Below, in pieces: positions 34,201 to 60,495 of a stretch of DNA of 64,000 bases. Position numbers and translations under genes: made by a program. Each line of letters starts with the position of its first letter. Within the stretch, counting starts at the first letter, position 1. The notes below the pieces were generated by a model. It was given only the letters and a program-made list of their open reading frames with translations, did no database searches and was not told the origin of the DNA. Source of the DNA: Marsupella aquatica (taxonomy: Eukaryota; Plantae; Marchantiophyta); the NCBI GenBank assembly GCA_973895155.1, contig OZ316896.1:19332754-19396753 (forward strand), given 5' to 3'.

Positions 34201-35039
34201 TTAATGATGGTGTCCACTTTTTGGTTTTTGGAGTCATATAAGAATTTTGATTTTCTTTCTTTTTCACATAAAATTAACAAATATTTCTAAAGTTGTCAAA
34301 CTTTTTTACTAATTTATAAATAAAAAAAATCCTATAATGCTGGCTAGCTAGTATGGTTGTAGACCCCTATATTAAAAAAACTATATAATTTGGTTTTCAT
34401 CTAGTTCTTCAACATCAAAACATCTTCATGTTTTTTTTTAAAGTTACATTTTTGTATTCGTTTAGTTAGAGCCACAAAAATTTAGTAAACTAAAATGAAC
34501 CACACATGGTCAATTGCATATTAGGCCATTATAAGAAATTAAAAACTTGCCTTATAAAAAGAGGAGCTGTCAACCCAATTTTTTTTAATTCCTTGTAAAA
34601 GTTTTATATCCAAATGACCATGGAAAGTTTAAGTTTCAAGTTGTACTCTCAACTCATGGTAATATGTATAGAGAGACCTAACTGTAAAAACATGCCAAAC
34701 TTGTTTTGATGCAAAAAAATCATGTGAAACTTTTTGTTAATACAGGATAACCAGCCAAACTAGGTTACATTTTGGGTTCAATTTTAAGAAAAAAAAATTA
34801 TTTTTTTAATGAAATTTATACCTGAATTTCAAGGATTGTTTTAATCTCATGTGGAAAAAGAGGAAACCAAGAATATTAAAAAGTTAAAACCAGTGTTTTA
34901 TTACAACATAGTACTCATTTGGAGCTATCAGGATTTCAATCAACAGAGGGATCGGAGTTAGTCAGAACACCCTATCATGTCACATCACTATATTCATTAA
35001 AACTGTACTTTTAAAAGTCCATAAGATGAACCCTAAAGT

Positions 35040-35150
35040 TATTTTTTTCAGGCCAAATTTCTATTAAAGGATTCCCAAAAGCTAATTTTTTCCAGCCCAA
35101 ATATACACTTTTGAACGCCCAAATTTATTTTTTTTCACTCAAATGTTTAA
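35040..35150 (+). repeat. Left subterminal CCAAAT repeats of the CACTA-ended element
   Basis: GGCCAAATTT, CCCAAAA, GCCCAAAT, GCCCAAATTT, CTCAAAT at ~21-22-bp spacing. A matching array lies at 58505-58690. Confidence 0.6.
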
Positions 35151-35446
35151 TAATAACTTAAATCATACATTTTAATTAATTTAAAAATTAGAGTAAATTT
35201 AATTTAGTCCAAAAATCAGAGGCCAATACCACTCAGACCATCTATAAATTAAAAAATATAGATGGTCATAAATCAAGGGTCAAAATGAGATTGACCCACT
35301 ATATAATTATTAAATTGTCCAGTCTAGTGAGAGAGCCTCACACTAAGCATATCCTAATTATTTACTTTATCCTACATGTTCAAAACATATCCTTTGACAT
35401 AATATGAATGTACAATTCAGGGTAGGCACTAGAGCAACCCTATCTC

Positions 35447-35656
35447 TTAATGATCAAGACAAAACTCATTTGAACAAGAAAGTCTGCTTCCTGATTTATC
35501 ATAGCGGATGTCACGGTTGCAAGTATCTCTCGCATGGTGGTTCTTAAACTTATTGGTGAGATCCCTAGTTCTGAGAACTTTCCAAATAAAATGCCTTCTA
35601 TTTTGTGTATGAGGACCAGAATAGTTGTCTCCAAGTATTACGTTTGCAGTTTCTTC
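35447..35656 (-). pseudogene. Displaced 3' end (69 codons plus stop) of the cargo gene's phosphatase exon
   Basis: The open frame EETANVILGDNYSGPHTQNRRHFIWKVLRTRD...CSNEFCLDH* joins in frame to ...ETWTTDEI (46797) once the insert and one GATCTCAT copy are removed. Confidence 0.8.
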
Positions 35657-36762
35657 GATCTCATCCCTGGGCCCTCACTCCTTGTATATTATACAATCAT
35701 ACCTGTGAGCCTCCCCTACACACGTACCCCTTCTTATTAATTTTTCTCCTATAGAGATTATCCTTGTTTTTTTTATAAAAAACCAAACATTTACTCTTAT
35801 TAAAATATCTTCAGTGTATTACAAAAGTGAGTTTTGAGCAATAATAATTATTCTTCATATATTACAATTTGTATTGAGCGATAATGCTTAACGCTGCCGG
35901 GTATGCTGCAATCTTTATATATGTAATCGAGTATGTAACTGGAGAGTTTTTTTGAAGACCAAGTTACCACTGGTCATGTATGTATATAACCGCTCTATAA
36001 AGGAGATGAAAATGGTAAGTCTTTATAAATCTAAAGACTGATATTGAATCAGCTATTGAATCAGCTAACCCCGCAGCTAACCTAAGACAATACAAACCTA
36101 AGACTCCTGCCCACTATCATGCCTTCCAATGCTGGTCTGCTTCATAAGTGAATAGTCACTTATGTGTACAGGCCATTCTGCTTGCCAAAAAATATGATTG
36201 TAAAAATGGGAAGGGACAATTGCAGGCAAATCATATGATTTTCGAACAGAGATCACACTCCATAGCCCCTCCACACTTGCCTCTACTTCAGGAATCACAA
36301 CATCTATGATTCCTAAACCACAACCTCCAGAACTCTCCTTAGCTATCTCCTTGTTGCTCCACTCTTCTTTGCTGTAATCAGGGCTGCCTTTCCCCTGTGC
36401 CTTCCTTGACTTTGGAACTCTGGAATAAACCACAACAGCTGCTGCAGTTGTCAGACCTCCAGTACCGGGTCTGCTTCTCCTCCTGCTCAGTCTAGAGCGT
36501 TTCTTCATCACTGTTGTCCCCACCTTAGTCATCTCGAAGTCTCCAATACACCTGATCCACAAATGGACCAACACCATGAATGAGTATTATATTGAATACA
36601 ACCAGATCTACAAGGTTTACAGATAACATATCAGAATACGCTTAGGATGTTTTCAAATCTTAACTTGCTACCTTCGCTCCTCTGGAGAATGTGTTACCCC
36701 GGTGTGTAACTGATGAATGATAAACATTAGGCATGGAGTGTACCTGCCCCAAATACAGGTCA

Positions 36763-39700
36763 TCATTCTATGTTGTTCTTTACAAAATTGTCGAGGGCAG
36801 TCACATCATCTGGAGGCAACTTAAAAATAGTTGGATAGAGAGGATCCACTGTAAAACTCACAGTTGATATGACACAGTCCAAGTCAATGGTCTATGGATC
36901 ACACATATTATAAGCAAATTTGTTCCTACTAGACCCAACCGGTGTAAACCAATTGAACACTACTTGACATGCAGCTTCGGAACCAGGTCTATCAAGTAGA
37001 TCCAAAGGTTCTCTAGATCTGCAAACACTGTTACCATACTTTCGGTGGATGCTTTGCACCCTGCCAATCCACCAAACATACTTTGGCCCATATGCAGAAC
37101 GTACACACTGCTACCGGATCTCCTCTTGGCTTCTTTGGATTGGTCACATTTTGTTTTGATTTCCTTCCACCTGCTTTCCCTTTGGATGCTTTTGCTACGG
37201 CCTCTGAGTTTCGAGTTGCCCTGACCTCATGTTGTGTTTCATCAAGGAAGAAAACACCACAGTCAGTGCCCACTGTCATGAACATAGTTGGTACACCCTC
37301 TCTATAGTTGGGTTTGTCCACTAAATTATTGAAGTACACACTCTGTTTCACACGAGTCAATCGGTCCTTACTCAAGTGGGGGTTTCCAATCAGCTGGCTG
37401 ACCAATGTACTTTTGTAGATCTGTCGCTCTTGAAAACACACAGTTGGCTTCACTTGCTTAATTGGTGCACCATACAACAAGTCTGAATGCATGATATTCA
37501 TTGTTGCATACAATTCGGAGGCAGCTTCCTCTACATGAGCGTCTACGTAACGGACAGACATCCCAGGGAAGGAACTCTCAGTCTCAGTCTCAGCGCCAGC
37601 TACAATCCCCAGGGTGGTAACAATAGGTGAAGCTTCCAAAATCATTGTATCAATCTCAGTGACAGTTTGAGGTTGGGCTTCACCATTCAAAGCAGGTCGC
37701 ACATCTCGAATGTCCAAAGTATCTCGTACATCTACAAGTGTATCCACATTGATGTCACGTACACCATCCACCAGACTTCACCCCTTTTGACTCAACTTTC
37801 CACGGTGAGTTCCACCATAGCTTATCCTTGCAAGATGTTGAAGGATTCATTTCCAGCTCAGTTGCAGCACATTGTGCCAAACTTAATCCCTCCTGCAATG
37901 CAACCACGATTGCTGCATTTGTCTCTATCCCTGTATAATCTGTCTGATCTGGACAGACATGAACTGCCTCTGAATCTAATTGAAGATCCATCCAAATGTT
38001 CGAATGCTTTTTGTGGCTCTTTCCAGCACCCATCAATCCCTCTGATACATCCATTGCAGCCAATCTGTTAAGATTAGTGGCACACTCCACTAATTCTGAC
38101 AAGTCATAGCTTCGCTCACGACCGTTCATGCCCCCTACTTTTGAGAAGAATTGCTCACACGCATCTGAGCCAGTCAACTCTAGAGGCACTGGAAGATGCT
38201 TGAAGTGGTCTCGGAATTGGATTATCAACAGAACTATAAAATAGACTGACATTTGAACATCAAGAAAGGTTTGCATAGGGATACAGTTCCGCATGAAAGT
38301 AATTGGTTGTGTATTCCCCCCTACAGTATGGTTCCCATGGAAGCACCATAGGCGCCACAGTCTGAAGAAGAAACCCACCTTCCCACAAAGTACAACCCTC
38401 TCCCGTAGAGTGAGCCGAGGGTTCATGAATATATCCAGATAATCTCCACATATACGAACAAACACCTCAGTTCCAAGTGCGAGCTCCACCCTTGCATCCT
38501 TCCGCAGATGCAACATCCTCAGCGTAGAACCCGCCTTACGACTACAAATCCTTTGTGCACTAGCCCAATTTTGCCTATCATTTCGTGTTACATCATCATG
38601 GTTCAGCCCATGAAGGTCATGGTCATATAAACCTAACAGGAGTCTCAGATGACTCAGGTTGGCCACTTGAGTCCCCAGTTTCAATATCTGAGCTGAAGAA
38701 TCCAATGGGTTCACTAACTTCTTCCCATTGTGGATATAGTCTTGGTCATGTAGCCCAACAGCGTGGGTCAATGGCCCATCACCTGTCATAGAGTGGCTCA
38801 ATTTCCAGCCTTCCCACCCAAGGCTAAATCTTGGCCCTGCCTTCTGACAGCCAGTATAGTCCTCCAACATTAACTTCCTCCTGCGTGCATCACCGTCACT
38901 TGCATGGCCGAGTAAAGGCCCCACACTCTCCAGACAATGAGTGTTCCACAATGACTCCAGGATATCCCACTGCTCTCTAACCCAAGGAGCTTTAAATCTA
39001 TTACATGTACCTGTAGCTAGTATAAGCAACCGTGGGAATCCCTCTGCAAGGGGATTGACTACTATACAACGAGCCATCTGCCCTACCACATTGTTGTCAA
39101 AAGCATCAACGATGATGTGGAAGCCAAGTTCTCCTTCGCCCACTTCTATCTCCCACCCAACAAGGCATACATGCTCTGTTTGGGTGCCGCAAAACCCAAT
39201 CATGGTGTCATGTTTTGGCAGCCACCTGCAAGAAACCAAAACTGAGTTCTTGGTTTCCAGATGGAGCCTACATAATAGTTGAAACAGAGATAAAGGTGAA
39301 ACTAGGATCCAACACCATGACATGACTAACATCATGCGTGAGGGCCTGAAGTACAACATCATGCATGAGGGCCTGAAGAAAGTACCTTACTGTTTTTTTG
39401 ACAGTGGTCTCATCTTCTGCCAAATAACAGGGAACTGGCCCTTTGATGTTGAGTCTCTCTTTCAGTTTGGAGTACACTTGAGAGACAAACATAAATTGTT
39501 CAGCATGGATTCCTGCTCGGAATACTGCCATCCCTCTTCTGTCCCGTTGAAGGGTGTTTATGCTTGGCCCTATCCCATTACTTGCAAGGCAGTCAACAAC
39601 ACGTCGACCACCATGCAAGAAGAGTGTTTGGCAGAGAAGCTTTGTTCCAGCCTTGAACCTATATCCCTCCTTTGTCGTATTCAAGTTTGAAGCTATATCA

Positions 39701-41825
39701 GATAACATATCCCACAATGCACCTCTCCCACCAAATGCACCCTTCCTGTGCGCAAGGACTATGGACTGACAAAACTTAAGGATAGATTCCTTATTGGGGC
39801 CTTGATAGTCAAGATAAACTTCCTTTATACTAGGGATCCGAGACTTCAGCATCAACAGTTTGTGACTTAGATATTTCTGCAACTTCCTCTCTCTCAAAAT
39901 TTGGTTTCTGTATACTTTAGCTTGGTTTTGGACCTCAGGAATTGTGAGGCAACCTAGCCGCCTGCCCTTGCCAGTCCCTCTCTCTCCTCTTTTCTCATAG
40001 GCCTTGACCTCTCTTGCTACCCGAAGTCTGAAGTCCTTCATGTTCTTAATGGAATAACACTTGGAACACGTCAAATCATCAAACCCGCCCCCCAACTGTG
40101 ACATTCGACTACATTCTTTATGCCTGAAAAGGCCCTTGATCTCACAAGCTTCTTCACTATACATACAGAACACCTCTGCCATTACTAGGGGCTCTGCATA
40201 CCACGCACCACCCACTTTCACCTGGTCGTGTAGGTGACTTTTGATAGGCCTAAGTTCTGACCCTACTTCTATCTCATCCCGCCACAGACCCCAACACAAC
40301 AATGACAAATTATCGAAAGTACCTCTATCATCATCTCGTGCTGACATCCTTGACGAGCTGCTTGATGCACCTGCAGTCGAGGTGCGAGTCAAGAACCCCT
40401 GAATTTTTCTCTGTTTCTTATCCCTCCCGTCCACAGTACGGGGTCTGCCAGGGCGCCCTGACAAAACTGGCTCATTTCTTGTAGGCCTCTGACTTTTGGC
40501 CACATAATCAAGATGGATCAAGCCAGTACAATGGCTTGTCAGATTAGCCTCCAAGTTTCGTTGTTTGGGTACCAAAGTCAAATGGTGAAGACAAAAATTG
40601 CAGAACAGTTTCAAAGTCTGGAACTCCACTGGTTCCTTATGGACATCCCCCTCGACTATAAACGTCTCGCGACCAACTGTCTGCAACTTGTTGACCTTTG
40701 CTACAATCTTCAAATGCTCGTCAAGTATGGCTCTATCAGTCAAAGTATTTGACTGCGCCCTCCTTGCAATCTCCACATGCCCAACTTTCTCACTCCTGTT
40801 CCTAGCCACCCGAGCTGCATGCTTTGATGATCGCAAATGCGAATTTTTGAAGTTGGTAAATGCATTATTGATGGATGATTTATCCATCAATGTACCTTTT
40901 GCTAGCCCTTCCACCCGCTTGTCACACTCACAACACTCGATATGCCCCCAGGGCATGTTGTCTTTGTCCCAAGTTCTCACTTTCCACTTGTGGTCAGCAC
41001 ATTTAATGGATTCCATGTGAGTCTTCAACTTATCCGCAGATGCTTCCCATACTGCCTTTAAAGTATTGCTCATAAGAGTGGACATGAATGTGACTTGTTG
41101 TTCAGGCTCTGGCAAGGGGCAACCAGAGTGTGGATCAGCTTCCACTGGAGGCTCCTCATTCATGGGAAAATCGGCATCATCACTCTCTGGCAATGAAAGG
41201 CCATTCTCGGGGGTTTCACTTCCACAAAAATGGGATATCACGTGCGACGAAGTATAGGGTCATTTTATTGGTTCAAAAAGAAGACTTAAGAATTTTCTGA
41301 GAAGAACAATAGGGTCTTTTAAATCCAATTTTGAGACTTATAAGAACATTAGGGTCCTTATAACCAAAATTTTGGAATATTCCAAGAATATTCCAACTTT
41401 ATAGGGGTTGAAAAAATAAATTTTTTTCTTACATTTTAGGGGGTCCAAGGCCTAAAAACGTCGCAGGTGATGGGGAGGCATCCGTATAGTGAGACCCCCG
41501 AGAGGCCATTGGAAGCATTGCTACTCCCGAGGGCTTGCCCTGCGCCTCCAGGGTCTACGTGCACCAATGGGGTTGGAGGCTCCAAGGCATTTTTGGGAAT
41601 GATAACAAGCTTTCCCCCACAATCCTCCAAAAGATTGCAGATCTCCCATTTCTCCGGCATCCGAGTGGCGAGATTGACATCAATAAAGTGGAAGTCAAAA
41701 TCGAGTAGTGCCTCCAACTTCAGTCGGGCATCAGCATACGATTCCCCTGCTTTGTAACTATATGACGATATAGGTTTCCTTTCCCCACCTTCTTTGTCTA
41801 CTTGAAACAAAGTGGCAGGCGGCAT
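36763..41825 (-). pseudogene. P-element/THAP9-like DDE transposase with N-terminal Zn fingers and AT-hook; disrupted
   Basis: Motifs LAEDET...VRW.PKHD..IGFCG (joined by GT-AG intron 39385-39226), HASDGDARRR, DQDYIHNGKKLVNPL, DRQNWASA, GSDACEQFFS. Two CxxC...HxxxxxH fingers and GRPGRPR. Lesions: MITE at 41206-41502, frameshifts at ~37775 and ~37080, in-frame stop at ~36893. Confidence 0.75.
41206..41502. mobile_element. MITE family A, copy 5 (297 bp; 8-bp TSD AGGCCATT), inside the P-like transposase
   Basis: Ends CTCGGGGGTTTCACT / AGTGAGACCCCCGAG. TSD at 41198-41205 and 41503-41510. Removal fuses ...SSNASNGL to SLPESDDADF... in frame. Confidence 0.92.
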
Positions 41826-41859
41826 TCTCTCACCCTTTACTGACAACCTATCCACCTCT

Positions 41860-45450: not shown

Positions 45451-46796
45451 GTCCACTCCCAGAAGAGTCAACACGCAACACTGAAGCTTTCACTATCTCC
45501 TTCGATCACTGGGTTTCTCAAAAATGATCTGTAAGCAAAACATCTCCACAATGAAGCACTCAAGCTGGCAGCGTTTGCAAATCCAATGAAATGTCACTCA
45601 TGTCGATCGCATCAAGATCTTAAGGATAGTCACAATGACTTAGAACAATCCATTGAAATCCAGCCAAATGCATTGGCAGTCAAAGGCACGTAAATCCTAC
45701 AAATCACAATGCAGTGGCGTGCAAATCCGCAAGTTGGCACAGTTACAGCCAAATCCAGGAAACATTGAGGCAACACATAGAACATTGAAGACATAACCGG
45801 GGAGATAACAATGCATGCCAAAAATGTGGAAGGTTCACAGAGCATTTGAGTGGGTGAGATTGAGACGACCTTGACAATCGCAATGTCGGGGAAGACCTTC
45901 CAAACTAAGGACCTTCAAAGCCAGCACTCAGCGATGCTGGGCAAGAGCAAGAACAGGCAAACGAGGGCCAACAATGTAGGATGCGGATCGACAATGGTGG
46001 ACAAGGCCAAAGCAGCAATGGCGGACGAGGAGCAGCAATGGCAGACAAGGAGCAGCGATGGCAGAGGATCAATGATGGTGGACGAGCAGCGATGGCAGTC
46101 GAGCAACGATGGCGGCCGAGCAGCGATGGTGGACGAGCCAGGAGCAAGCAGAAGGCATCAGGGAGCGGGAGCACGAGTGGGAGCGCGAGGCGAGGTGAGA
46201 CCGAGCGCAAAGGAAGAATGAGGAGCAGGGGTACGAGGGGGGGCTGACCCCGGGCGGTGACGGTCTCACGACTAAACCCTAAACCTTAGGGTTCATAACG
46301 TAGGCGAGGCCATGGATCGCCGATTCAATGGCTTCGATTCGCTCTCCCTCTAATCCAACGGTTTGAGTCATCCCCGATGTGTTTTCTTAAATTCCCCGCC
46401 AAAACCCCCACCACTCCACACACCTGGTCCATCCCCATTGCCCCGGGATCGCCCCCAATCCTCCCTTCAAAACTTTTCTAGCTTAGCATAGCCAGTATTA
46501 ACATTTTAATTTATGAAGGAGATATGGATACTGTAAGGATAATACACGTGTACCAATTATAATTTGACACGTGTACCAATAATATGATGCCGCGTGTCGC
46601 TACCTATTGATTTACCCTTCCACAAGTAAGCAGGATGACATTTCAAGGGGTCTTACGAAATTACAAAGTGGTTTCAGTATATATGCGGTGGTTGCGGAAT
46701 TGTAAGCAAATTATAAAAATTACCGCCGAAGGGATAAAAATGACCCTTGAACGGTTCTCACGTCCTCCCCGTATTAGAAAGGAGGGGGGCCCAGGG

Positions 46797-49700
46797 GATC
46801 TCATCCGTGGTCCACGTCTCCAGTGGTGGGTAATGCTGCACCTCGTTCTTTCCGTCCCAAGGAATCTCTTCAGGAGTCACATCCAAGATGGTTCCAAACT
46901 CCTTATGGATACAACGACAATCTCCCCACTTCTGTTCCAAAAGAGCATAGATGGCAGCATGATCCTCCTTGCTTGTTAATAAATTGAAAACAGACCACTT
47001 TGGATTGTTGACAGTGATATAATGTTGAACGCAGTAAGCCTTTCTCAATTTGCAAAGATACGGCCATAATATCTCGGGCAAAAATGTGTCATTTGAAGCT
47101 GTGTGAGTAAATGGATTTGGAAACAATCCATTCACGTCATAATTCAAAAATGCCTTCAATGGAGAATCATCAATAAGAACTATATTAGAAGCATCATATT
47201 TTTCTGGAAAACGGTCCCAAATGGTTTGCAAATTCTTCAGAAGTAAATTGGCCTTCCCATCTGTTATATCTGGCCTTTGGATGCAACTATCAAAGGTATC
47301 TTCTTGAGTAAAGACAAACTTGAACTTCTGTCGCTCCTCCTCAGTGAAAATCAACTCCATTAAGTCCATTGTTTTTGGCCTCCTTGCACAGGTCCAAATT
47401 GCGACGTCAAAAACCATGAAAGCTGCATATAGAAATTTGTGGAGGTATGGGCGCTCCACATACATGAAATTAAACCCTCCACGTCTCCCCCAGTGCACAC
47501 CACGTAAACTTGTCTGATTTTGCCATGGTCCTGAGCTTCTGGTCTTAATGCAATCCCAACAAATCTTGTTAAGGTCAAGAACCAAGAGCTTTCGCCCGAT
47601 CGGAGAGTGTAGTATTGGAGTGAATTCTGGAAACATTAAAATAAGCCCTTAGTCAATGCGACTCAAAGTTTAAACAATTACTACGGAGGAAAACTCTCAA
47701 AATTTGAAATCAAACAAACTTTGTTATAGCATTTGAAGTAGAGAAGAACGACCCTGGGGCGACCCTCCTAGAAAAACATTAATTACATTCACTTGCCATT
47801 TTTTAGATCCAAAGTATACCTGGGTCAAACCCTTCCTCCACAGCAACGCTTTCCGAGGGAATGCCAACAAAATCCTTTGAGGAAGGAGATTCTACGACGG
47901 AACTTTGATCTGTAAAAAAGTATATTATTACAAAGATAAAGCTTAGATTGTCATTAAAATACCAAGAACCAAAGAAAGGGCTAATACTTTCCAATGCTAA
48001 AATGCCCAAATTCATCTATTGTTTGATCACCTAGAACACTCTGTATCTCGGAATTGATACCACTGGGAAGTTGCTCTTCAAAGGATGGGGGTGCAAAAAC
48101 TGGGCTCAGTCTCAAGTTCAGTTTTTTGTAATCTGATTTTGCCATTATCTTTGGAGCATCGTCTAGTGATTATATCATTCCAACCTTTGGTCCATTTCTC
48201 CATATAAAATGAGTTGCAGGACGGACTGTTTTCATATATCTAGTCCTGCCGATCTTGGATCCAAAATTTTGTGAAAATGATAATACTACGGGGCTTCCTG
48301 TAGAAGCACTTGTAAAAACCAATTTAGTCTCTGATGAGCAATATAGAGGAGACAGGGGAGGATTTGAAGCACCCGCCTTCTCTTCTTCATTTGCAGCGGT
48401 CTCAGGTACTTGACGATCATCCTCCTTTGCAAGCGCAATGTCTGACATTTCTCCCAATTCTACTGCGTCAATATTGCCTAGACCATCTGTGGTTGCCTTC
48501 CAATGTGCGTCCGATGTGGACGATGTAAGATCTGGGTCCGATTGGTGCATCCAATTCTCTACACCGGCAAAGGGATTTCTTGGTGGGTCGCCCTCAGGTC
48601 GACCCACAACATCGGCCAACCCCACACCAAAGTAGGGAATACCTACCACTTGTGTTCCACGTTCATCCAAATTTCGGGTGACCCTGTCGTCTGTGTCGTG
48701 ACCCAATTCTCCTTCCTCAATATCATCTTCACCCTGGTCTACGCCTTCTTTGGCACCAACATGCTCGAAAACCCCATCTCGGGCTCTACCAAATTTGGAA
48801 CCGCCCATCCGGTCACTCATTATGGAAGGAACTTTCTCGCAGAGAACCCTTCCATATGCCTGAGTGAAATCATATTCATCCTCAGTGTCTGAATACGCAA
48901 AGCATTCTCTGAAACACAACAATGACACCTTCATAACCTGTCCTCCCGAGAAAAAGTCAAGTATAGTCTCCCCTTCAGCCGAAAAAAATTCGATAATACT
49001 CTGCAGCATACATTTTGGCTTAGCGTGAATATTCACAAAGCCACCTCTACTTCCCCACCATCTCAAACATGGGAGCCTTTCGTAAGAAATCTCCAATGTG
49101 GAATGCCAAAGTTGACTCAGTCTCTGTCTCCTTACTTGTCTTACTCTTATTCTTATCTCGCTTCTCCGTCTTGTCTTCCACTTGGAAATCAGGGTCGATC
49201 GCCGAATTGTAAGAAAATTGGCAATTAAATCCAGGCCTGAACACTTGCTTCCAATCAAATTTCTCCTCAGTGGTGATTCCTGCAAAGATCCACAATGTAT
49301 TGCAGTAATGCAATAATTTCAGCATCGGTCCAAACATGTTGTCGGAGCCTACTGAAGTCAACAATGGCAAGAGGACACAAAGGCGAAGGCTCTTGTAGCA
49401 TTTCCGGCACGGTCGTCTTCATCAAATTCTCACTAAAAAATGTCAAGAAAGGCTCCGTGCAAGAACGACCAATCCCACCAAATTCTTTACAATACAACCC
49501 ATCTAGTCTGACCATCAGACTTTGTGGGAAACTCTCCTTGACCACATTCTTCTTCAATGAATTGTTGAGGTAAACCTCACCCGCTGCTCTCCTCAATTTT
49601 GTCATCTCAAGCTCAGATTTCAAGGAAGGCAACAATATCACCAGAGACTCCCAAGATGTGCCAACAGGAAACTTCTCACGATACTTTTCCATGAAATAGC

Positions 49701-52700
49701 CAATAATGACTGTTCTCAATTTGGACATTATCTTGATTGTAAGGGCCAAGTCTCCCATTGCGACAAGCTCTGATTTGTTGGTGATATCCTTCTTCAGCAA
49801 GACACGCTCCTCTTCAACGTCCTTCAAGATCTCAATTATTTGTTTGCTACTAATCTCTCCTTCAAAGCATCGAAAGGTACCGGGAGTGATCAATTTTGGG
49901 GGTCTTGGCCCTCCATACCCACCAGCCCCGTCTTGGAGCTTCCCACTCAACCATTTTGCACACACGTTTCGCCATAATTCAAAGAGCTCATCTTCGGCAA
50001 AAAGTAACCAATAAATGCTCTTTAGGCTTGACTTCCCCATTGTAACCTTTGCCAGGGCAAACCAATCCTGCATATCCAATGGACTTGACATTAGTTTCAG
50101 GGTACAATGCATATGTTAGAAAATTTATACCTATATTTGAAACAGGCTAAGCCGCCTCGCCCCAAGGGCATGGCGAACCTCTACATCTAACCGCAATTGA
50201 CTGAAACGGAACTAGGGAATTATTCTTAGAGAGACTAGTCTAGGTTGCCTCGCCTTGAGGGCGAGGCAAACATTTGCTTTAATCTTCTAACCAAGGAAAA
50301 CAAGAAAAGGCAACCTCGCCCTTGGGGTGAGGCAAACCTCTACCATTGACAATCTTTAAACAAAGCGGATCAAGAATAGTTTGCGTTGCTCCAACATGTA
50401 CCTGATAGTTTTTCCTGTCTGTATTTTGATTGGTCCCAATCCCTGGACGCGGCGGTTTCCCGCACTCCTCAAACTGCCTTCGTGCATGAACAATAGTCTC
50501 TAAAAAACAAGACTTAAATTGCATAGTATCATTGACAGCATTCGATAAACTTGAATGCTCAACCAAAATTGTCTTCGGAGTGAGGTCAGATAGGATCCTT
50601 GCTTCCTATACTTTAGTTTGTTGGCAAGATCTGTCAGCTTGGCGTCAGTCTCGGCCCACCCTTGGATCCATTGGGCAGCTCTTGCAGAATGCTGGCCACT
50701 GATGGCAAGGAATTGGATCTCATGCTTCTTCACACCAATCAAAAACTCTTTCCTATCCTGAGGTGTGTTGTCATAATGAAGCAACTGTTTAGTGCTCTCG
50801 CGATACGGAATCAAATCAGCAACTTGTGGTTCCTGTCCAGGGTTTTTCATCATAGACTTTGATATCTCCATTGCATGCGAAAGATTGAACATTCGATATA
50901 CAAAAACGGCCGATGGCGGATTAATACTTTTTACAGGAATATCAAAAACTTCGCGGATGCCAAAAGTATAATACTACTCAATATTACGCAAAACCTCTTG
51001 GCCTTTGAGCACATCATCTTCTGTGGGTCCTTCTGTCGGACACATATCATCCTCTGGATGCAAGACAAAGTTTGAAGTCGACCCTGACATTGGTTTTGAT
51101 TTCGCAACCTTTGCCTTCTTTGTCTACTTTTTTTGGGGGCCCTCATCATCTTCATTTTTTTTAGCCATCTTCTTACGGCGTGAACTCCCAGATTGTTTCT
51201 CTTGTTGAACAACCGGCTCTTGAAGCTTTCATTTCTTCTCTGTCTTTGATTGCACACTTCTTTCCACTGTCTTCTTTCTCTCCTTTGCCTTATGCTTTGC
51301 TTCTTTTTTCTTCATCTCTGAAATCCACGTCCGGCACGCGGCCTCTTGAAACTCTGGACAAAAAATGAAACTCTTGTCGATTGCTTGCTCGTATGAAAAA
51401 TGTGCCTTCTCAATCATCCTTTGAACTATCCAAGTAGACGGAGGGTCCACACTGTCCGCATTGTCATGCATGTGCTTCTTTACGTAGAGAAATCCAAACA
51501 CTAGGTCAACTCCACTTATTTGAGAACACGTCTTCTCAAACATCTGATCAATTGTTACTCCATCTAGGAAGAATCCCATATCAGCTACGCTTATCTCCAA
51601 TCGAGCCATCCACTCAACATTCAGTAAAGTCGAGTAGAGTTTTATTGGCACCAGAAGTCTCATCCACTGAGATTTCTCATTGGACTCAACAATAATCGTT
51701 GCATTGCGGTTGTTGTCCGTGTTCACAAGGACGACTGGACCTAGAGTAACAATTGTCTTATGGTCATTCAATTGACTCGTGAGGTCCTTAAAACAAATCA
51801 AGAGACTGCCTTCCGCCGACTCCCCAACTTCTAGTGCCCATCTAAATCCTGGAGTATCTTGGTCAGGGAAAACAAAGTCCTTGATATCCTCGTCCATAAT
51901 ATTTAACTCCGGCTTCTCAAGATTTTTTCCTGGTAAGAAACATTGAAAACAAAATGGTCAACATCATATTTTTAACATTGACATGTGGAAAACTTTCAAG
52001 GTGCCTCGCCCTTGGGGCGAGGCGACAAATAGAAGATTGCAAAATCTTCTTTGCTCCTAGTGCAATTAGCCCTGCCACCTCATCCAAGCAATCAAACATT
52101 ATTTAGGAATGCAGACGACATCGCCTCACCCCAAGGGTGAGGCAACTTCTAGGAAAGCAAACAACATTTAGGAATGCAGACAACATCGCCTCGCCCCAAG
52201 GGTGAGGCAACTTCTGGGAAAGCAGACAACATTTAGGAATGCAGAGGACATCGCCTCGCCCCAAGGGCGAGGCAACTTCTGGGAAAGCAGACAACATTTA
52301 GGAATGTAGAGGACATCGCCTCGCCCCAAGGGCGAGGCAACTTCTGGGAATGCAGACAACATTTAGGAATGCAGATAACATTGCCTCGCCCTAAGGGCGA
52401 GGCAACTTCTGGGAATGCAGAGTACATTTTAGGAATGCAGATGACATCGCCTCGCCCCAAGAGCGAGGCAAAAAATAGAATATAGCTAAAGATCCTTTAT
52501 TAATGTAAGATACAAGGTCCAATACACCTTCGGAGCAACAAGAAATCTAGAATGAAGTAGACGTCGCCTCAACCTTGGGGCGAGGCGACTGCAAAGGAAT
52601 ATAGAAATTTTCCTAATAAGAAGTTTGAAATCCAAATTAAAGTAAAGTTTCCTCGCCCTTAGGGCGAGGCAAGAAGTTGAAGCAGGTGGTGCCTTACGTG

Positions 52701-53966: not shown

Positions 53967-54295
53967 GTTGGAGTAGGGTCGAAATAATTCCGACCCAACT
54001 TGTCAATGTTTAGTCAATTAAATCATTTTAAGACATATTGTTGGAGGAGGGTCGAAATAATTCCGATCCGACTTGTAAATGTTTAGTCAATTCAATCATT
54101 TTAAGACATATTGTTGGAGGAGGGTCGAAATAATTCCAACCCAACTTGTAAATGTTTAGTCAATTCAATCATTTCAAGACATATTGTTGGAGGAGGGTCG
54201 AAATAATTCCGACCCGACTTGTAAATGTTTAGTCAATTCAATCATTTCAAGACATAATGTTGGAGGAGGGTCGAAATAATTCCGACCCAACTTGA
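53967..54295. repeat. 73-bp tandem array (~4.5 units) with palindromic core GGGTCG-AAATAATTC-CGACCC
   Basis: GTCGAAATAA at 53978, 54051, 54124, 54197 and 54270. An inverted partial copy lies at ~53848. Confidence 0.95.
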
Positions 54296-54420
54296 ATGTA
54301 TTTAGGGTTTAGAGTGATTTTACAATATTTTTTGGAGGAGAGTCCAGATTTTGAAACATGATTGTAACATGGGGAACTTAACAATTTCTAACTTTATTTG
54401 AATACAGATAGTCCGCTATC

Positions 54421-57400
54421 ATGATCAATTTTACACGAGGGGATGAAGTGTCATTGGTGATCGATGGATTTGAAACGGCAATTGGGATAGTTCAAAAGGT
54501 TGACCCCCAGGATACTATACAGAACATTTGTCTAGTGGATAATCGAATTGGGGTATTGATCGAAAAGTGTTTTAATGGATCGCGTCAACTTCCATTTCCT
54601 TCGCCCAAATTTTCTACATTGGCTGAGGCAATTGACTCCTGCGTGATTTGGGATTGTGCATTGGCATACTTGAGGTCATCAACTCAGCGCCGAAGAATCA
54701 ATGTCGATGATTTCTCTTTGGCTGGAGATGCTGGAAATGATAAATCCAAAATTGATGCAAGGGTTGAAGAGGACGTGTTCAAGGAAGGAGATGAAGTTCA
54801 GATGTTCATTTTTGATCAGTTGGTTGCAAATGGAGTTGTTTTCAAGACAAATCCGATGGATATTTGTCATACTGAAACACTCGGGGTTGGTCGCATCAGT
54901 ATAAGAATATCTGATATTGTTAAGGGAAATCAAAAATTGCCATACTCGCACCCTGGAGCTGATACAATAGAAGAGGCCTTGCATACCTGGGTTATCTGGG
55001 ATGTTGCGCATGTTTCTAGAAAGGGCACTCTACGAGATTTTGGCGTGTTTGGTAGTTCAAATATTTTCAATGATCTTCCATTAAAAGATTTTACACTACG
55101 TTCCAACTGGATGGCGGAGGAGGTTGATTTGTATGACGCTTCTCGTTATCGGAAGGTTGCAACAGGTGTTATCACGGTCCCATTTGAAACAGGTGCCGTT
55201 GACGATGAACTTCTTAATTGGTGTAGATCATGTTGGTGTTGCTGTTGTGAATATCAATGAACCCGGATTATTTCCAAATATCCGTGTTGGTACCCCTGGC
55301 TTGGTGAGGTGGGAAATCAAATCCCTTCTATTGATTTCGTCTCAAAGGTTTCTTGGGGATATCCTTGAGGAAGTTTCAGAGAAGTGGATGGAGTCGGGTC
55401 AAACTAAGGGCGATCCGGATTCAGATGGTGATGGTAAACCTACAAAAAGACCATACAATTTCATTAGGAGGACAAAAGTTGATCTTGAGGAGAAGAAGAA
55501 AAGGCATTTGGAGTTGAGGGCACTTTTGAAAATTAACGAGGAGTCCATTGATTCCATCCAAAGAGAAGGTTGTTGCAAGCTAAAGTGTTGCTTGAACATG
55601 CCCAGGGAGGACTTAGAGGCAATGAGGAGGGAATACCATGGAATGTCAAGTGACAACAAAACAAGTCACATCTTTAGTCTCTTTGGGTGTAGAGAGGAGC
55701 AAGTCAAGAGAAAGGGATTTTTTGTTCTAAAGGGACGTGTGGTTTGTAAAGATGCATTTATTAAAATGCATGGGTTCAGTACAACAAAGTACTATGACTA
55801 CAAAAATCAATACGAAGCTGGTTGCACAATTGGTTTCCATGGAAATCAGGGACAACGGAAGACACGATCAAGCACTTTGCACGCTCGCGCCTTGTTGGAG
55901 TCCATTTTAATCCAAAATGGGGAACCAATGCCACATCTTCCCTATGGTGGGTCCAACGGCACTGACACTATTGAATATCGGCTCTCATCTTGTTTTACTA
56001 AGAAGGAGATTTTCTAAGAGGTGTTTACCAAGATGGAATTAGATGGGTTTGCTAAGGTTACTGAAGTTACTATGTACAACATCTGGAAAAACTCATTTGA
56101 TAATTTTGACTTTCACAAGGGAAGTGCATTTGCCAAGTGCACATTTTGCACTGAGTTCAAAGATCAATTGATGCGGGAGAAGAGAAAAAAAGAGCGTGCA
56201 GAGATTGAAGAGAAAAGAGCGCGACATCTTCGTGAACAATGTCAAGAAGATATGTTTACTATGCTCATAGGGTTCTTGCAAAGAAGGATCCTCAAAACTA
56301 TCTTTGCATTATTCACGATAAGATGGATCAAGCCAAGACTTGGATCCCCAGGTTGGTCCCCACTCCAAAATCCCTCTCTGGTAGTGGTCAGCCTTTGCCT
56401 ATTGCTCTTACTGGGATGTTAACCCATGGAAGAGATCCTGGAGTGTATGCACATTTCAGTTTGACTGGACTTTGGCTTGGAGATGCAGACTTTACCGTGA
56501 CATCTTTGGCCAAATGCCTCCAAGATTTGGAAGATTACACAGGAGACAAAACTGGAGACCTTCTTGAGGGATTGAATTGGAATGCAACTAGGCCAATATT
56601 TCAGTCCCTTCTAGACTTTGAAGCATTTCTGGCCGGTTACTTGGAACCCAAAAATGTTTCAATTGTTCGATTTCAAGGCATTGAAGATGGTCAGGAGACT
56701 AAAAAGTCAAGCACAGTGGATGTTGGTTCTAAGGATGATCCTGAGACTACTAGGGGCTCTTTCAAGCCCTTACCAAGGCACCTAACGTTGCAGATGGACA
56801 ATTCAGGGAAAGATAACAAAAATCAATATGTGATGGCATTTTGCACTGAGCTTGTTAGCAGGGGGTGTTTGAAACTGTGCAAATGGCATTCCTCATGGTT
56901 GGCCACACCCATGAAGACGTGGATGCATTATTTTCTCAAGTATCCAAACAGGTCAGATACAAAGAGGTTGCTACCCTCTTGGGGTTGATGGCTGAGGTTT
57001 GGGAGTGTGAAAGCATTCATCCTGTACCACGATTGATTCAAGAGGTTGCATCTTACAAGGAGTATTTGAAAACTTTCCAGGTGAAAGAGATAGAAGGTCA
57101 CTCAAAACCAGTGGCATTTCTTTTCTCCATGAGGGATAATGTGCCAGTGTATCAATATAAAGCACATGTCAAGCAACCTTGGCTTCCGGCAATGGGGAGG
57201 TCCATTTGGAGAACTGATCCCATCACAAATGCGCTCATTTTACCGGAAGGCCAACCATTTGCAAAACCTATATCTGGGGATGTACAAAAGAAGGCTGGAG
57301 AAATCATCCCATTCCTTAATCGCTATATTGATTTCTTGAAGAAAAGTTGTAAGGATGAGACCGCTGCAGCATATAAAGAGAGATTTCCTCTGGTCAAATA

Positions 57401-58139
57401 TTGGAAGAATCTTGTGCAAGCACTGTCCGAGGAACTTACAATAGAAGGGGAGGGGGAAAGACATTTGCCATTGACAATTGATTTTTGGCCAAAGACTAAC
57501 CATGGCACAGGTTACAAGATGATTTTGGGGACATCTCAACCGTCAAGTGAACCTTCTCAAAATCCAGAGATGATGGACCTTCAAAATGAGTACATGGAAG
57601 AGATGGAAGATCAAGCTGCACCCTTTGTTGGTGCACGACAAGAGCGAGAACCTGCACGTTGGATTCCTCTACAAGATATTCAAGAAGGTCACTTTGTATT
57701 TTTACGTCCAGAGGATGAATGGGAACAGGAAAATGGCAAAGGGCGTTTCTGGTTGGTTCGAGCTTTGGGTGGTGTGGATCCAAACCATGAGGTTCCCTCA
57801 ACAGATTTGCAACATATTGAAGGGTCTTCTTCAACGTCTGTTGAGAGCATTCCTCTTAGGAATGCTCCTATGTTCCAAGTACAATGGTGGAGGCCTAAAC
57901 ATGGTAAGCATGATGCAAAGGATGATGTTCGATATGAACGTTGCTTTCAAACCACTAAGACTTGGGAGCTGGATCCTGGGTTTGACAATGTTACTCAAAG
58001 TTGGCAGTTTGCAAATTCTGCAATGTATGGGTTTAAGTCAGGTGCTAAAGAACAAAATATTATGGATAGAGGTTTGACAATTACTAAGAATGTTTTGAAA
58101 ACTCTCAAAATTTACATGGAAGGTATAATTGATGAGTAG
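54421..58139 (+). pseudogene. Transposase of the CACTA-ended element (DUF7869/Sola1-like DDD core with three N-terminal tandem domains), ~1240 aa, disrupted
   Basis: IIHDKMDQ, LTLQMDNSGKDNKN and FLMVGHTHEDVDALFS acidic-triad motifs; CCKLKC, VCK and KCTFC Cys clusters. Three N-terminal repeats of GDEV...VA.G.V...LG...I...LP.P...T..EA....VIWD. Frameshifts at ~55215, ~56238 and ~56865; stop at 56015-56017. Confidence 0.82.
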
Positions 58140-58504
58140 ATTGATAGAACTCGTAGGTTACAAGTCTCCACTCAAATGACTTGTGATTAAGAGGGTCGAG
58201 TTGATTTCCATGCGTTTGTCTAAAGTGAGAGAACAAGACAATCAAATTAATACTCTATGATCTCTCAAAGTTATTGAATGGACTTTCTTATAATTATTAT
58301 TTTATTTGTCTTAGTATATTTTAATTCTAGAAAATGATGCCATTTCATTCCTTCTAGTAGGTTGGATATCATCCTAGTTAACTTTGTCTAGACAGTATAG
58401 TCATTCCATTGTATTGGTGCTTAGTTAGATATCTTACTCAAGCTAAATGTTTTGAATATAGATGCTATCCAAGCTTATATGTTATTACTAGATTCTATCT
58501 ATTT

Positions 58505-58690
58505 TCCAACCAAATGAACACTTTTATCACCCAAATGTTTTTTAATATCATCCAATTTAATATTTTATTTTCCCAAAATTTCATTTTTTTATCCCCAAAT
58601 TTACATTTAATGATGCTTGAATTTTCATTTTTCATCTTCCAAATTTACAATTTTCATGCCTAAAACTATGTTTTTAAATCGCCAAATTTC
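58505..58690 (+). repeat. Right subterminal CCAAAT repeats of the CACTA-ended element
   Basis: ACCAAAT, CCCAAAT, TCCAATT, CCCAAAA, CCCCAAAT, TCCAAAT and GCCAAAT at ~21-22-bp spacing. Confidence 0.6.
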
Positions 58691-60495
58691 CCTATATCCT
58701 TTATAATTTCAGTTTTAATGAATATAGTGATTCACACCCAATAATATATATCACAGTATACCAACAACATACTTAAACCATCCAGGAGTTTCATAAATTA
58801 TAGACTTTCAAAACATTATCTATTTATTTATTTTATCACTAATTTTATTTATTATTTATTTCACTTCTGTGACTTCAAATGAGAATTAGATTTTAATTTT
58901 CTATTTTACCTAGAGCTTAGCTTTGGAACACATCAACAAGCCTATGTGTTATGAAACACTCCTACCATATGCCTAGATGATTTAGTGGTACAAAATATAT
59001 AACAAATAGAGAAAAGAAATGCTGCTATAAGGAAACAAAGGGTCATTTATTTGAATGCAACTCTCTTGGCTGCATGGAAGTAGACATGTGAGTGCTAAAT
59101 CTTGCATAAAAATCTGGAGCACTATCTATATTGGCCACCTTTCTACCATCATGATGGTTGCAATCAAAAGTTGTGGAGTTTGCATGCTCAAATTGATATT
59201 CATGTAAAATAAAGTCAAGGACAAAAGCAATATTTTATGGCTTATACTTGCCCAATGGTGGGGTTCAATATAGTAGGGTGCAAAATAATATACTTAAATT
59301 ATCAAGAAAAACTTTTCTAAAAAAACTTGATAGGCACCCATGGAGACCTATTTTGGTAACTATCAACTCTTCTTGTATAGTGCTTTGATGTTGTGTTGCT
59401 AGTTGTTGCTATGTCTTGCTAGATGTGGCTTTTTTCTGTGAGCATTCATTTGATGCATTAATGTTGATGAGTGCCAATCAACCAATAGTTCATCTACATT
59501 AGGCTTAAACATCATACTCTTGCTAGAATAACTTTTTATGGTGGAATAGACGTATCTCACAATGAAATGGTATATATCGCATACTATGTTGTATATTAAC
59601 TGCAAAAATGTAATGTTGGGTGTAATGTATATCCCTCAAATGTGAGGATGAGGGGGGGGGGGATGATGTAGTTATTTATGAATATATGATTCTATTGCCT
59701 CACAGTTGCGAAACTTTTAACTCACGAAGCCTTCCCTTTGGCTTTTTCTATCTGCTTTCACTGATTGTTCCTATCATTTTCACGCTTTTATTTCATAATT
59801 GTTTCAGCTAGGTTTTCCATCAAACATTTATATTTCTTATTGCATATGATCATGTTGTTTGAGTCTCACCTGAGTCTCTAATGTCTACTTTGATGGGTCA
59901 ATTTTCTATTGTAAAAAGAAAATACTGTGATCCCGACTGTGATTCCCCATCCGATCTTTAAGCCCTACTCAAAATTTCAATTTATATTTGAAAACTTCTC
60001 ATCTAGCAAAATGCCTACAAGGCTCGTTTGAGGAATGATTGGCTACAATGGGATTATGACTCCATAATTATTACAGAAGCTTTATATTGAGACAAAGCAT
60101 ATCATTCCAATTGTCAAAAAGAGTCATAAGCTTGTTGCCATTCTGATGCTAAGAAAGGCCTTTGATCTAGTTCACACAATTTATGCATAGTGAAAACGTC
60201 CGGTCTATTGCATTGGCAACTTCCTAGGGAACATGCATCTTTGACCACTAGGGTTAAACCACTTGTTTTGCCATACTATTTGTTACAGACCAAAATTTTA
60301 TGATGCTTTCCTCCTCAAGGTGACCACCTTCGATCTGGTCTTCTGGGTTTTCAATGCCCCCTTGGAAAGCTGCCTGGCTGTTTCATTCTATATATGCCAT
60401 CACACTTACAGATCAGGCTATAATCTTTCAAGACTAAAATTGTACGCACCTGGTCCAGGGGTTGTCATAAAAGTGCGACTCAGAGGTTGTTGCTT

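What the first reader, a model, noticed from the sequence alone, without database searches (positions are those of the whole stretch)
34986..58729. CACTA-ended element powered by a non-CACTA-type (DUF7869/Sola1-like) transposase
Seen: perfect 20-bp CACTA...TAGTG TIRs, AT flanking both ends (a 2-bp TSD, not the 3 bp usual for plant En/Spm) and subterminal repeat arrays. The only transposase belonging to the element has D-x-MDQ / QMDNxxKDNKN / GHTHEDxD motifs, which I recognise as DUF7869/Sola1-like rather than the TnpD (Transposase_21) core of plant CACTA. Inference: an unclassified large cut-and-paste lineage combining CACTA-like ends with a different DDD enzyme. The AT is palindromic, so it could instead be a 2-bp TIR extension.
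Basis: partly seen in the sequence, partly recalled or inferred. Interest (0 to 1): 0.82.

Follow-up and report, generated by a model that had tools for sequence, protein, structure and literature searches.

The report
Giant dead Sola1-type transposon, liverwort
This is a real 23.7-kb DNA transposon copy with perfect inverted ends and three broken genes in a liverwort-like genome; its cutting enzyme is likely of the known Sola1 kind, and its "CACTA" ends are probably a coincidence two bases inside the true ends.

Summary
The element is real. Its ends match perfectly for 22 bp, not 20: ATCACTATATTCATTAAAACTG at 34984-35005 and 58710-58731. In four public runs, contigs of other copies share the sequence up to and including the AT on both sides. 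The four bases outside the AT are a direct repeat (TCAC/TCAC). The best reading is therefore a 22-bp inverted repeat with a 4-bp target duplication, not CACTA ends with a 2-bp duplication.

A 701-nt contig in two runs joins the left and right flanks without the element, so a diverged empty site exists.

The transposase gene (54421-58136, +) matches Pfam DUF7869 and no CACTA, Mirage or Chapaev family. It keeps all three acidic motifs but has three frameshifts and one stop. A modelled intact relative has an integrase/transposase-like RNase H core. The closest relatives are liverwort proteins.

One (36769-41259, -) is predicted to fold like the Drosophila P element transposase. The other (47996-50524, -) resembles a DNA methylase and recalls the giant Sola1-1 element of Ectocarpus.

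Verdict: a new member of a known kind, probably Sola1. I could not check the Sola1 assignment against Repbase.

The parts
34980..34983 (.). Left copy of the likely 4-bp target-site duplication, TCAC
   Evidence: Read directly. It is identical to 58732-58735. It lies outside the unit shared with other copies, whose alignments start at 34984.
34984..35005 (+). Left terminal inverted repeat, 22 bp perfect (ATCACTATATTCATTAAAACTG); CACTA is at its bases 3-7
   Evidence: Other copies' contigs begin aligning at 34984: X2 record 2, X3 record 14, X4 record 19, and 7 X2 contigs with unlike sequence before 34984.
35006..35200 (+). Left subterminal repeat zone with CCAAAT(T/A)T motifs at 35053, 35097 and 35119
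36769..41259 (-). P-element-type transposase-like gene, about 1500 codons, with three frame changes (near 39382/39257, 37765 and 37098)
   Evidence: tblastn of relatives is colinear over this span. There are 88 relatives, mostly from liverworts plus a fern. The model of 37755-39386 has pLDDT 83.3, and its best Foldseek PDB match is the Drosophila P element transposase 6pe2_A, E 3.2e-07, prob 1.00. The ESM Atlas gives P transposase clusters at 0.94.
46761..47648 (-). Open frame with an NIF (CTD-phosphatase-like) domain; the usual DxDxT site reads DLNKI
   Evidence: Pfam PF03031, E 2.7e-16. Translation. The DxDxT motif is recalled, not taken from a call.
47996..50524 (-). DNA-methylase-like accessory gene, broken by frame changes near 49288 and 49081, with part of the relatives' middle missing
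   Evidence: tblastn of P0181 (818 aa, Calypogeia fissa) and P0182 (901 aa). Pfam N6_N4_Mtase scores E 0.003 in the window and 6.5e-05 and 6.3e-05 in the relatives, all below the curated cut-off.
52101..52471 (.). Tandem array of a 65-bp unit, 5.7 copies, each holding a GCCTCGCCC....GGGCGAGGC palindrome; further copies of the palindrome lie between 50150 and 52672
53967..54294 (.). Tandem array of a 73-bp unit, 4.5 copies, just upstream of the transposase start
54421..58136 (+). DUF7869 (Sola1-type) transposase pseudogene without introns: frameshifts near 55214, 56239 and 56859-56874, and a stop at 56015-56017
   Evidence: Colinear with P0162 (1230 aa, residues 1-1228) and P0008 (1250 aa) in four frame pieces. 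Pfam DUF7869. The motifs are kept.
58500..58709 (+). Right subterminal repeat zone with CCAAAT motifs at 58510, 58531, 58595, 58639 and 58682
58710..58731 (-). Right terminal inverted repeat, 22 bp perfect
   Evidence: Other copies' contigs stop aligning at 58731 (12 contigs over four runs) or at 58732 (8 contigs); none is listed at 58729.
58732..58735 (.). Right copy of the likely 4-bp target-site duplication, TCAC

Best explanation
This is a dead 23,748-bp copy (34984-58731) of a repeated cut-and-paste DNA transposon of a liverwort-like genome, which likely belongs to the Sola1 group and likely made a 4-bp target duplication (TCAC).

Shown:
- perfect 22-bp inverted ends;
- subterminal CCAAAT arrays;
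- many other copies that share the ends, AT included;
- a contig that joins the two flanks without the element;
- a DUF7869 transposase gene that keeps its three acidic motifs but is broken by three frameshifts and a stop.

Predicted: the enzyme has an RNase H-like DDD core. Beta-1 carries the D of IIHDKMDQ, beta-4 ends in the D of QxDN, and the helix after beta-5 starts with HEDVD. A winged-helix domain and small beta-barrel repeats of the TNP1/En/Spm (Transposase_23) type precede the core.

Inferred:
- An intact enzyme from another copy would bind the ends, perhaps reading the CCAAAT arrays through its front repeats. It would cut at ATCACTA and paste the element into a 4-bp staggered target.
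- This copy, with all three large genes broken, could move only in trans.
- The element carries a methylase-like gene, as the giant Sola1-1 of Ectocarpus does. Its usual DPPY site reads DFSR, so it is probably not an active methylase.
- It also carries a P-element-type transposase gene. Whether that gene is a passenger of the family or an old nested insertion is open.
For: Ends.

Repeated family and boundaries:
- Summed contig depth rises from 13-97 in the flank to 1,536-22,318 at bin 34976-35009.
- It falls from 903-9,554 at bin 58720-58746 to 0-41 in the next bin.
- Other copies' alignments start at 34984 and end at 58731 or 58732.

Target duplication: TCAC lies at 34980-34983 and 58732-58735. 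At that boundary, lengths 1-3 and 5 do not match. By my estimate, not a call, the chance of any direct repeat of 4 or more bases is about 0.006.

Empty site: a 701-nt contig (depth 33 in X4, 38.7 in X5) lies with its letters 1-381 on 34526-34910 and its letters 505-701 on 58800-58992.

Enzyme:
- Pfam DUF7869 is the only family that passes its cut-off in the catalytic half.
- 397 relatives have E up to 0.001.
- The motifs are conserved from liverworts to lancelet and mussel.
- The model of P0010 matches integrase and Mos1-type cores over residues 518-761, at Z 8.3-7.2 and rmsd 3.0-3.7 over 128-167 residues.

Front repeats: Transposase_23 passes its cut-off in P0022 (29.6 bits) and P0162 (23.4 bits), and is weak in the window (E 0.22).

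Linkage in another species: the methylase-like P0181 (CAM6082376.1) and the DUF7869 fragment P0171 (CAM6082370.1) lie on the same 66.6-Mb Calypogeia fissa record, six accession numbers apart.

Printed parallels: Sola1 insertion preference for AWWT/AWDT tetranucleotides, called a hallmark of Sola1 (PMC3845634 passages). The 21.5-kb Sola1-1_Ec32 has a 4-bp duplication and an opposite-strand ParB-methylase gene (PMC12477816 passages and supplement row).
Against: - The 4-bp duplication rests on this one copy. No other copy could be read at both ends, and the middle 123 letters of the empty-site contig were not shown.
- TCAC does not fit the AWWT/AWDT preference printed for insect Sola1.
- A strict AT target with a 2-bp duplication would also explain why all copies share the AT.
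- The step 'DUF7869 = Sola1' was not tested against any Repbase Sola1 protein.
- Foldseek gave no PDB match at E up to 0.001 for the 1101-residue model, and the tool calls Z near 8 middling.
- No ParB domain was detected, and the methylase match is below Pfam's cut-off.
- A second transposase gene inside leaves room for doubt about which enzyme serves these ends.
Confidence: 0.68

Rival explanations
1. One reading: the element ends exactly at CACTA...TAGTG, always inserts at AT and duplicates it (2 bp). It would then represent an unclassified lineage with CACTA-like ends and a DUF7869 enzyme.
For: AT lies on both sides. All other copies listed share the AT, as a strict AT target would also give. 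The element has CACTA-style subterminal arrays, and relatives carry a TNP1/En/Spm-type domain.
Against: TCAC directly repeated just outside the AT would then be a coincidence, with a chance of about 0.004-0.006 by my estimate. The AT completes a palindromic 22-bp repeat. A 4-bp duplication is what print gives for Sola1. No CMC family of Pfam matches.
Confidence: 0.1
2. The 22-bp ends belong to the P-element-type transposase at 36769-41259, and the DUF7869 gene is the passenger or a nested element.
For: The P-type gene is large and lies 1.8 kb from the left end, pointing outwards. Its family is abundant in liverworts. No separate ends were found around it.
Against: No 8-bp duplication, the length I recall for P elements, flanks the element. 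The DUF7869 gene also lies next to an end, 595 bp from the right one. The methylase-like gene is linked to a DUF7869 fragment in Calypogeia fissa. The four closest P-type clusters examined hold no named Calypogeia member. In Riccia sorocarpa the locus tags of the two gene kinds are 17 or more apart.
Confidence: 0.06
3. The enzyme is a very diverged member of the CACTA-Mirage-Chapaev (CMC) or KDZ group, so that the CACTA-like ends are inherited rather than coincidental.
For: CACTA sits near the ends, there are subterminal arrays, and the front of the protein has a cysteine cluster and a TNP1/En/Spm-type domain.
Against: In the proteins scanned at E up to 1-10 there was no match to Transposase_21, DUF1258, DUF1280, KDZ or Plavaka. 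PMC3985635 passages equate the first three with CACTA, Mirage and Chapaev. The 3-bp duplication is absent.
Confidence: 0.06

Closest known systems
Sola1-1_Ec32, the giant Sola-1 transposon of Ectocarpus (PMC12477816; passages and one supplement row read)
   Same: Length over 20 kb (21.5 kb there, 23.7 kb here). A 4-bp target duplication. A transposase gene and, on the opposite strand, a large gene with a DNA-methylase part. Many family copies have a pseudogenised transposase and are thought to move in trans.
   Different: The termini there are AACCG...CGGTT with a 282-bp imperfect repeat; here they are a 22-bp perfect ATCACTA.... The ParB domain reported there was not detected here, and the methylase match here is below Pfam's cut-off with DFSR in place of DPPY. 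The host here is a land plant. This element also holds a P-type transposase gene. I could not compare the proteins themselves.
Sola1 transposons in general (Bao et al. 2009, not held; quoted in PMC3845634), with Repbase Sola1-1_PPa named (that PPa means Physcomitrella patens is my recall)
   Same: Inverted ends, a 4-bp duplication, a DDD-type enzyme, and a patchy spread over animals, fungi, algae and a moss.
   Different: TCAC does not fit the printed AWWT/AWDT preference. The enzyme here has TNP1/En/Spm-type front repeats. Membership could not be tested against a Repbase sequence.
Plant CACTA (En/Spm) elements
   Same: The letters CACTA near the ends, subterminal repeat arrays, large size, and a Transposase_23 (TNP1/En/Spm) domain in close relatives of the enzyme.
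   Different: CACTA is offset by two bases. There is no 3-bp duplication and no Transposase_21 core.
Drosophila P element transposase (PDB 6pe2, 6p5a), for the second gene only
   Same: Predicted fold: E 3.2e-07, prob 1.00, TM 0.47/0.56 over 439 columns.
   Different: Only 11% identity. No Pfam P-element family matches. No 8-bp duplication or inverted ends were found around the gene.

Membership tests
Plant CACTA / En-Spm (CMC superfamily) | Element ends exactly with 5'-CACTA...TAGTG-3' | tested here: inconclusive
   CACTA is at bases 3-7 of the unit shared by other copies, which runs from 34984 to 58731. A fixed AT target would give the same picture, but the TCAC repeat outside the AT argues against that.
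Plant CACTA / En-Spm (CMC superfamily) | 3-bp target-site duplication | tested here: not met
   With ends at CACTA the 3-bp flanks are CAT and ATT. With ends at ATCACTA they are CAC and TCA.
Plant CACTA / En-Spm (CMC superfamily) | TnpD-type core (Pfam Transposase_21; Mirage DUF1258; Chapaev DUF1280, as equated in PMC3985635) | tested here: not met
   None of these matched at E up to 10 in the five window pieces of the transposase gene. None matched at E up to 1-5 in the 15 relatives scanned.
Plant CACTA / En-Spm (CMC superfamily) | Subterminal repeat arrays and a TNP1/TnpA-type protein domain | tested here: met
   CCAAAT arrays lie at both ends. Transposase_23 is above its cut-off in 2 of the 16 family proteins scanned (P0022, P0162) and weak in 2 (P0038, window P0001).
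Sola1 | 4-bp target-site duplication | tested here: met
   TCAC/TCAC lies just outside the 22-bp ends, in this one copy only. The printed AWWT/AWDT preference is not matched.
Sola1 | Transposase groups with Repbase Sola1 proteins | not testable with these tools
No Repbase sequence is at hand. Pfam DUF7869 matches. No held paper contains 'DUF7869'.
Sola1 | RNase H-like core with three conserved acidic residues (DDD) | tested here: met
   The motifs are conserved in every row of the 21-row alignment that covers them, except N for D in P0029 and the out-of-frame tail of window piece P0003 at the third motif. The strands and helix carrying them are in the model. The core matches integrase and Mos1-type domains at Z 8.3-7.2. 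Z is middling, and Foldseek gave nothing at E up to 0.001.
Giant Sola1 with ParB-methylase accessory gene (Sola1-1_Ec32 type) | [quoted passage not shown] | tested here: inconclusive
   An opposite-strand gene is present. N6_N4_Mtase matches only its C-terminal part and stays below the cut-off (E 0.003; 6.5e-05 and 6.3e-05 in relatives). No ParB family appeared at E up to 5.
P superfamily (second gene, 36769-41259) | Fold of the P element transposase | tested here: met
   The model has pLDDT 83.3. It matches 6pe2_A and 6p5a_A at E 3.2e-07 and 3.6e-07; the next match, Hermes, is at 0.025.
P superfamily (second gene, 36769-41259) | Own inverted ends with a 7-9 bp duplication around the gene | tested here: not met
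   Scripts over left ends 35006-36770 and right ends 41260-46000/46500 found none in the strict search. The loose search found one weak pair, and I estimate about 1.3 by chance.

The most novel reading that the evidence does not exclude
Liverworts hold a giant Sola1-type transposon family that is a true chimera. Its DDD enzyme has taken over the subterminal-repeat-reading front domain of plant CACTA elements (TNP1/En/Spm type). The element also carries, as fixed cargo, a second transposase of the P-element type and a catalytically dead methylase-like protein. It would be one mobile element with two unrelated transposases.
Probability: 0.25. Interest if true: 0.65.

Novelty: new member of a known kind. 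Interest (0 to 1): 0.42.

Why it matters
- Letters such as CACTA near an end are not enough to class a transposon. The boundary has to be set from other copies, and here that moves it by two bases and changes the duplication from 2 to 4 bp.
- Giant Sola-1 elements with a methylase-type accessory gene are in print for a brown alga, with similar proteins reported from green and red algal transposons. This finding would place them in land plants.
- It points to two little-described repeat gene families of liverworts: a DUF7869 enzyme with TNP1-type front repeats, and a P-element-type transposase without any Pfam match. Both matter for annotating bryophyte and fern genomes.

Tried and rejected
- The window's own genome is not held, so copies could not be collected genome-wide.
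- A scan of metagenome contigs with the 20-nt end gave one locus (L001). It shares nothing else with the window and is a chance match.
- Earlier findings by sequence and by place gave nothing.
- Bao et al. 2009 and Yuan & Wessler 2011 are not held.
- The supplements of PMC3985635 gave only false 'sola' hits, and one file was not searchable.
- 'DUF7869' occurs in no held paper.
- The ISAzo13 lead, a weak hit of P0152 at E 0.048, led to no useful paper.
- A search for 'Sola1' alone was swamped by an antibody clone name.
- A search for Sola in bryophyte papers found nothing useful.
- Sequence searches of the PDB with P0006, P0008 and both family profiles gave nothing meaningful.
- Foldseek with the 1101-residue transposase model gave no match at E up to 0.001.
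- P0159 (51232-51957) has no relative of near length.
- Pfam on 50 small frames of 41.4-53.7 kb added only the NIF and weak methylase hits.
- No nested ends were found around the P-type gene.
- The central 123 letters of the empty-site contig were not shown by either laying. Both layings are used, so the exact empty-site sequence stays unread.

Full report

The 20-bp inverted ends are at the stated coordinates. They are the only two matches in the window at up to three mismatches, with none expected in 100 shuffles. With the flanking AT, the perfect repeat is 22 bp (ATCACTATATTCATTAAAACTG), and similarity continues to 32 nt at 91%.

Subterminal repeats are present. CCAAAT occurs three times in the first 420 bp and five times in the last 430 bp, against 0.70 per kb in the window. 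All eight copies are on the + strand, so the two arrays are direct with respect to each other, not inverted.

The quoted protein motifs are there. Pfam DUF7869 matches the two frame pieces at E 3.9e-15 and 7.8e-22.

**2. Where does the element end?**

No genome is held for this window, so I used public runs. Five runs hold the left junction. I laid four of them on each junction at 80% likeness.

- At the left, summed contig depth rises from 13-97 in the last flank bin to 1,536-22,318 in bin 34976-35009. The tool warns that this is not a copy number.
- Contigs of other copies begin to align at 34984: X2 record 2, X3 record 14 and X4 record 19. Seven X2 contigs carry unlike sequence before 34984, with agreement 0.49.
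- At the right, depth falls from 903-9,554 in bin 58720-58746 to 0-41 in the next bin.
- Loose ends lie behind 58731 in 5, 1, 3 and 3 contigs of the four runs, and behind 58732 in 3, 3 and 2 contigs. Single contigs lie at 58734 and 58735. None is listed at 58729.

So the unit shared by the family includes the AT on both sides.

Immediately outside that unit, the flanks read TCAC on the left (34980-34983) and TCAC on the right (58732-58735). Lengths 1-3 and 5 do not match at this boundary. By my estimate, the chance of a direct repeat of four or more bases there is about 0.006.

A strict AT target with a 2-bp duplication would also explain the shared AT, but it would leave TCAC/TCAC as a coincidence. 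I therefore read the element as 34984-58731, with 22-bp ends and a 4-bp duplication. This rests on a single copy.

**3. Is it an insertion?**

The junction contigs of X2 (474 nt) and X4 (472 nt) match the window without a difference, so the insertion is present in both coded organisms.

In X4 and X5 a 701-nt contig lies with its letters 1-381 on 34526-34910, with 33 differences and 24 gap letters. A contig of the same length and the same depths (33 and 38.7) lies with letters 505-701 on 58800-58992. Its 30 letters before that resemble 58762-58799.

I infer that this is one contig that joins the two flanks without the 23.7 kb. That makes it a diverged empty site, either a paralogue or another haplotype. 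Its middle 123 letters were not shown, so it does not settle the duplication length.

**4. The transposase**

The gene runs from 54421 to 58136 on the + strand. It is colinear without gaps with full-length relatives: P0162 (1230 aa, Calypogeia fissa, 42-71% identity by piece) and P0008 (1250 aa). It falls into four frame pieces, with shifts near 55214, 56239 and 56859-56874 and a stop at 56015-56017. It has no introns and is a pseudogene.

A search of 1.84 billion representatives found 397 relatives at E up to 0.001. The named ones are from the liverworts Calypogeia fissa and Riccia sorocarpa, and more distantly from lancelets and mussels. The ESM Atlas gave streptophyte DUF7869 clusters.

The three motifs are I(I/H)DxMD, LQxDNxxx(D/E)NKN and VGHTH(E/T)DxD. 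They hold in every row of the 21-row alignment that covers them, with two exceptions: N for D in P0029, and the out-of-frame tail of window piece P0003 at the third motif.

AlphaFold2 on P0010 gave pLDDT 70.1. It places the motifs on beta-1, at the end of beta-4 and at the start of the helix after beta-5. VIA-align matched residues 518-761 to retroviral integrase cores and to Mos1, Metnase, Sleeping Beauty, IstA and TnsB, at Z 8.3-6.7 and rmsd 3.0-4.6 for the compact core matches (IstA and TnsB align over longer spans, at rmsd 6.2 and 8.6). It also matched a winged-helix domain at 385-471. Foldseek gave nothing at E up to 0.001. The tool rates Z near 8 as middling, but the top rows are consistently this fold.

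**5. What class is it?**

No CMC family of Pfam matched. These are Transposase_21, DUF1258 and DUF1280, which PMC3985635 passages equate with CACTA, Mirage and Chapaev. Neither they nor KDZ or Plavaka appeared in the window pieces at E up to 10, or in 15 relatives at E up to 1-5.

A 4-bp duplication is what print gives for Sola1:
- an AWWT/AWDT tetranucleotide preference, called a hallmark of Sola1 with reference to Bao et al. 2009 (PMC3845634 passages);
- a 4-bp duplication for Sola1-1_Ec32 (PMC12477816 supplement row).

Giant Sola-1 elements with pseudogenised transposases and an opposite-strand ParB-methylase gene are described in Ectocarpus (PMC12477816 passages). That element's best hit is a Repbase entry named Sola1-1_PPa. 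I recall PPa to be the moss Physcomitrella patens.

I could not compare with any Repbase protein. Bao 2009 and Yuan & Wessler 2011 are not held, and no held paper contains 'DUF7869'. The Sola1 assignment is therefore probable, not shown. TCAC also does not fit the AWWT preference.

**6. A CACTA-type domain after all**

The front of the enzyme holds two repeats of about 75 residues. In the close relatives P0162 and P0022 this region passes Pfam's cut-off for Transposase_23 (TNP1/En/Spm transposase) at 23.4 and 29.6 bits. In the window it is weak, at E 0.22. That makes 2 of 16 scanned proteins above the cut-off and 2 weak.

The model shows small beta-barrels there. That this domain reads the CCAAAT arrays is my inference only.

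**7. Other genes inside**

(a) P-type transposase gene, 36769-41259, - strand.
- It is about 1500 codons with three frame changes.
- It has 88 relatives, mostly in Riccia species plus the fern Adiantum, with full-length forms of 1492 aa.
- No Pfam family matches.
- The model of 37755-39386 (pLDDT 83.3) matches the Drosophila P element transposase at E 3.2e-07, prob 1.00, TM 0.47/0.56. The next match, Hermes, is at 0.025. The Atlas agrees.
- I found no inverted ends with a 7-9 bp duplication around it.
- In Riccia the locus tags of the two gene kinds are not adjacent.
- Whether it is cargo or an old nested element stays open.

(b) Methylase-like gene, 47996-50524, - strand.
- It is colinear with P0181 (818 aa, Calypogeia fissa) and P0182 (901 aa), and it is broken.
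- Only the C-terminal part matches N6_N4_Mtase, and below the cut-off.
- Where I would expect DPPY (recalled), the relatives read DFSR.
- No ParB family was seen.
- P0181 and a DUF7869 fragment lie six accession numbers apart on one Calypogeia record. This supports linkage of the two genes in another species.

(c) An NIF-domain frame at 46761-47648.

(d) Tandem arrays at 52101-52471 (palindrome-bearing 65-bp unit) and 53967-54294 (73-bp unit).

**8. Verdict**

The element and its ends are real, and the enzyme is indeed not of the CACTA type. The '2-bp duplication, CACTA-ended, unclassified lineage' reading is not supported.

It is most likely a dead, trans-mobilised member of a liverwort branch of the Sola1 group. 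It is built like the giant Sola1 of Ectocarpus, with two unusual extras: TNP1-type front repeats and a P-type transposase gene.

Noticed in passing
window 34500-34566: Another repeated sequence ends at about 34566, some 420 bp left of the element. Summed contig depth there is 867-14,043 against 13-60 beside it, and many loose ends lie at 34561 and 34566.
   Followed up: no
window 50150-52672: At least eight copies of a palindrome of the form GCCTCGCCC-NNNN-GGGCGAGGC. Five lie in a 65-bp tandem array at 52101-52471, between the methylase-like gene and the transposase gene. They could be protein binding sites; this is untested.
   Followed up: partly
window 34984-35400 and 58300-58731: The subterminal CCAAAT motifs have the same strand orientation at both ends (8 on +, 0 on -). 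The two ends are therefore not mirror images beyond about 32 bp.
   Followed up: partly
P0010 model, residues about 26-110 and 977-1081: Foldseek rows for Tudor, KOW, BAH and SAWADEE-type small barrels (UHRF1, Spt5, DNMT1 BAH; E 0.08-0.6), and a VIA row at 26-110. The transposase may carry chromatin-reader-like barrels at its front and tail. All scores are weak.
   Followed up: no
window 46761-47648 (-): An NIF/CTD-phosphatase-like open frame (Pfam E 2.7e-16) whose expected DxDxT site (recalled) reads DLNKI. It could be a captured host gene piece or cargo of the element.
   Followed up: no
window 11017-12663, 20078-21013, 28887-29489, 60499-61473: Host-type genes around the element: glycosyl hydrolase 116, TauE/SafE exporter, a GRXCR-type glutaredoxin and a protein kinase. 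The element sits between genes.
   Followed up: no
window 32571-33188 (+): A weak Exo_endo_phos match (E 0.00011, below the cut-off), possibly the endonuclease of a LINE-type retroelement.
   Followed up: no
window 34526-34910 and 58800-58992: Runs X4 and X5 hold, at single-copy-like depth, both the window's version and a version 7-15% different of the flanks. This points to a duplicated region or a second haplotype in that organism.
   Followed up: partly
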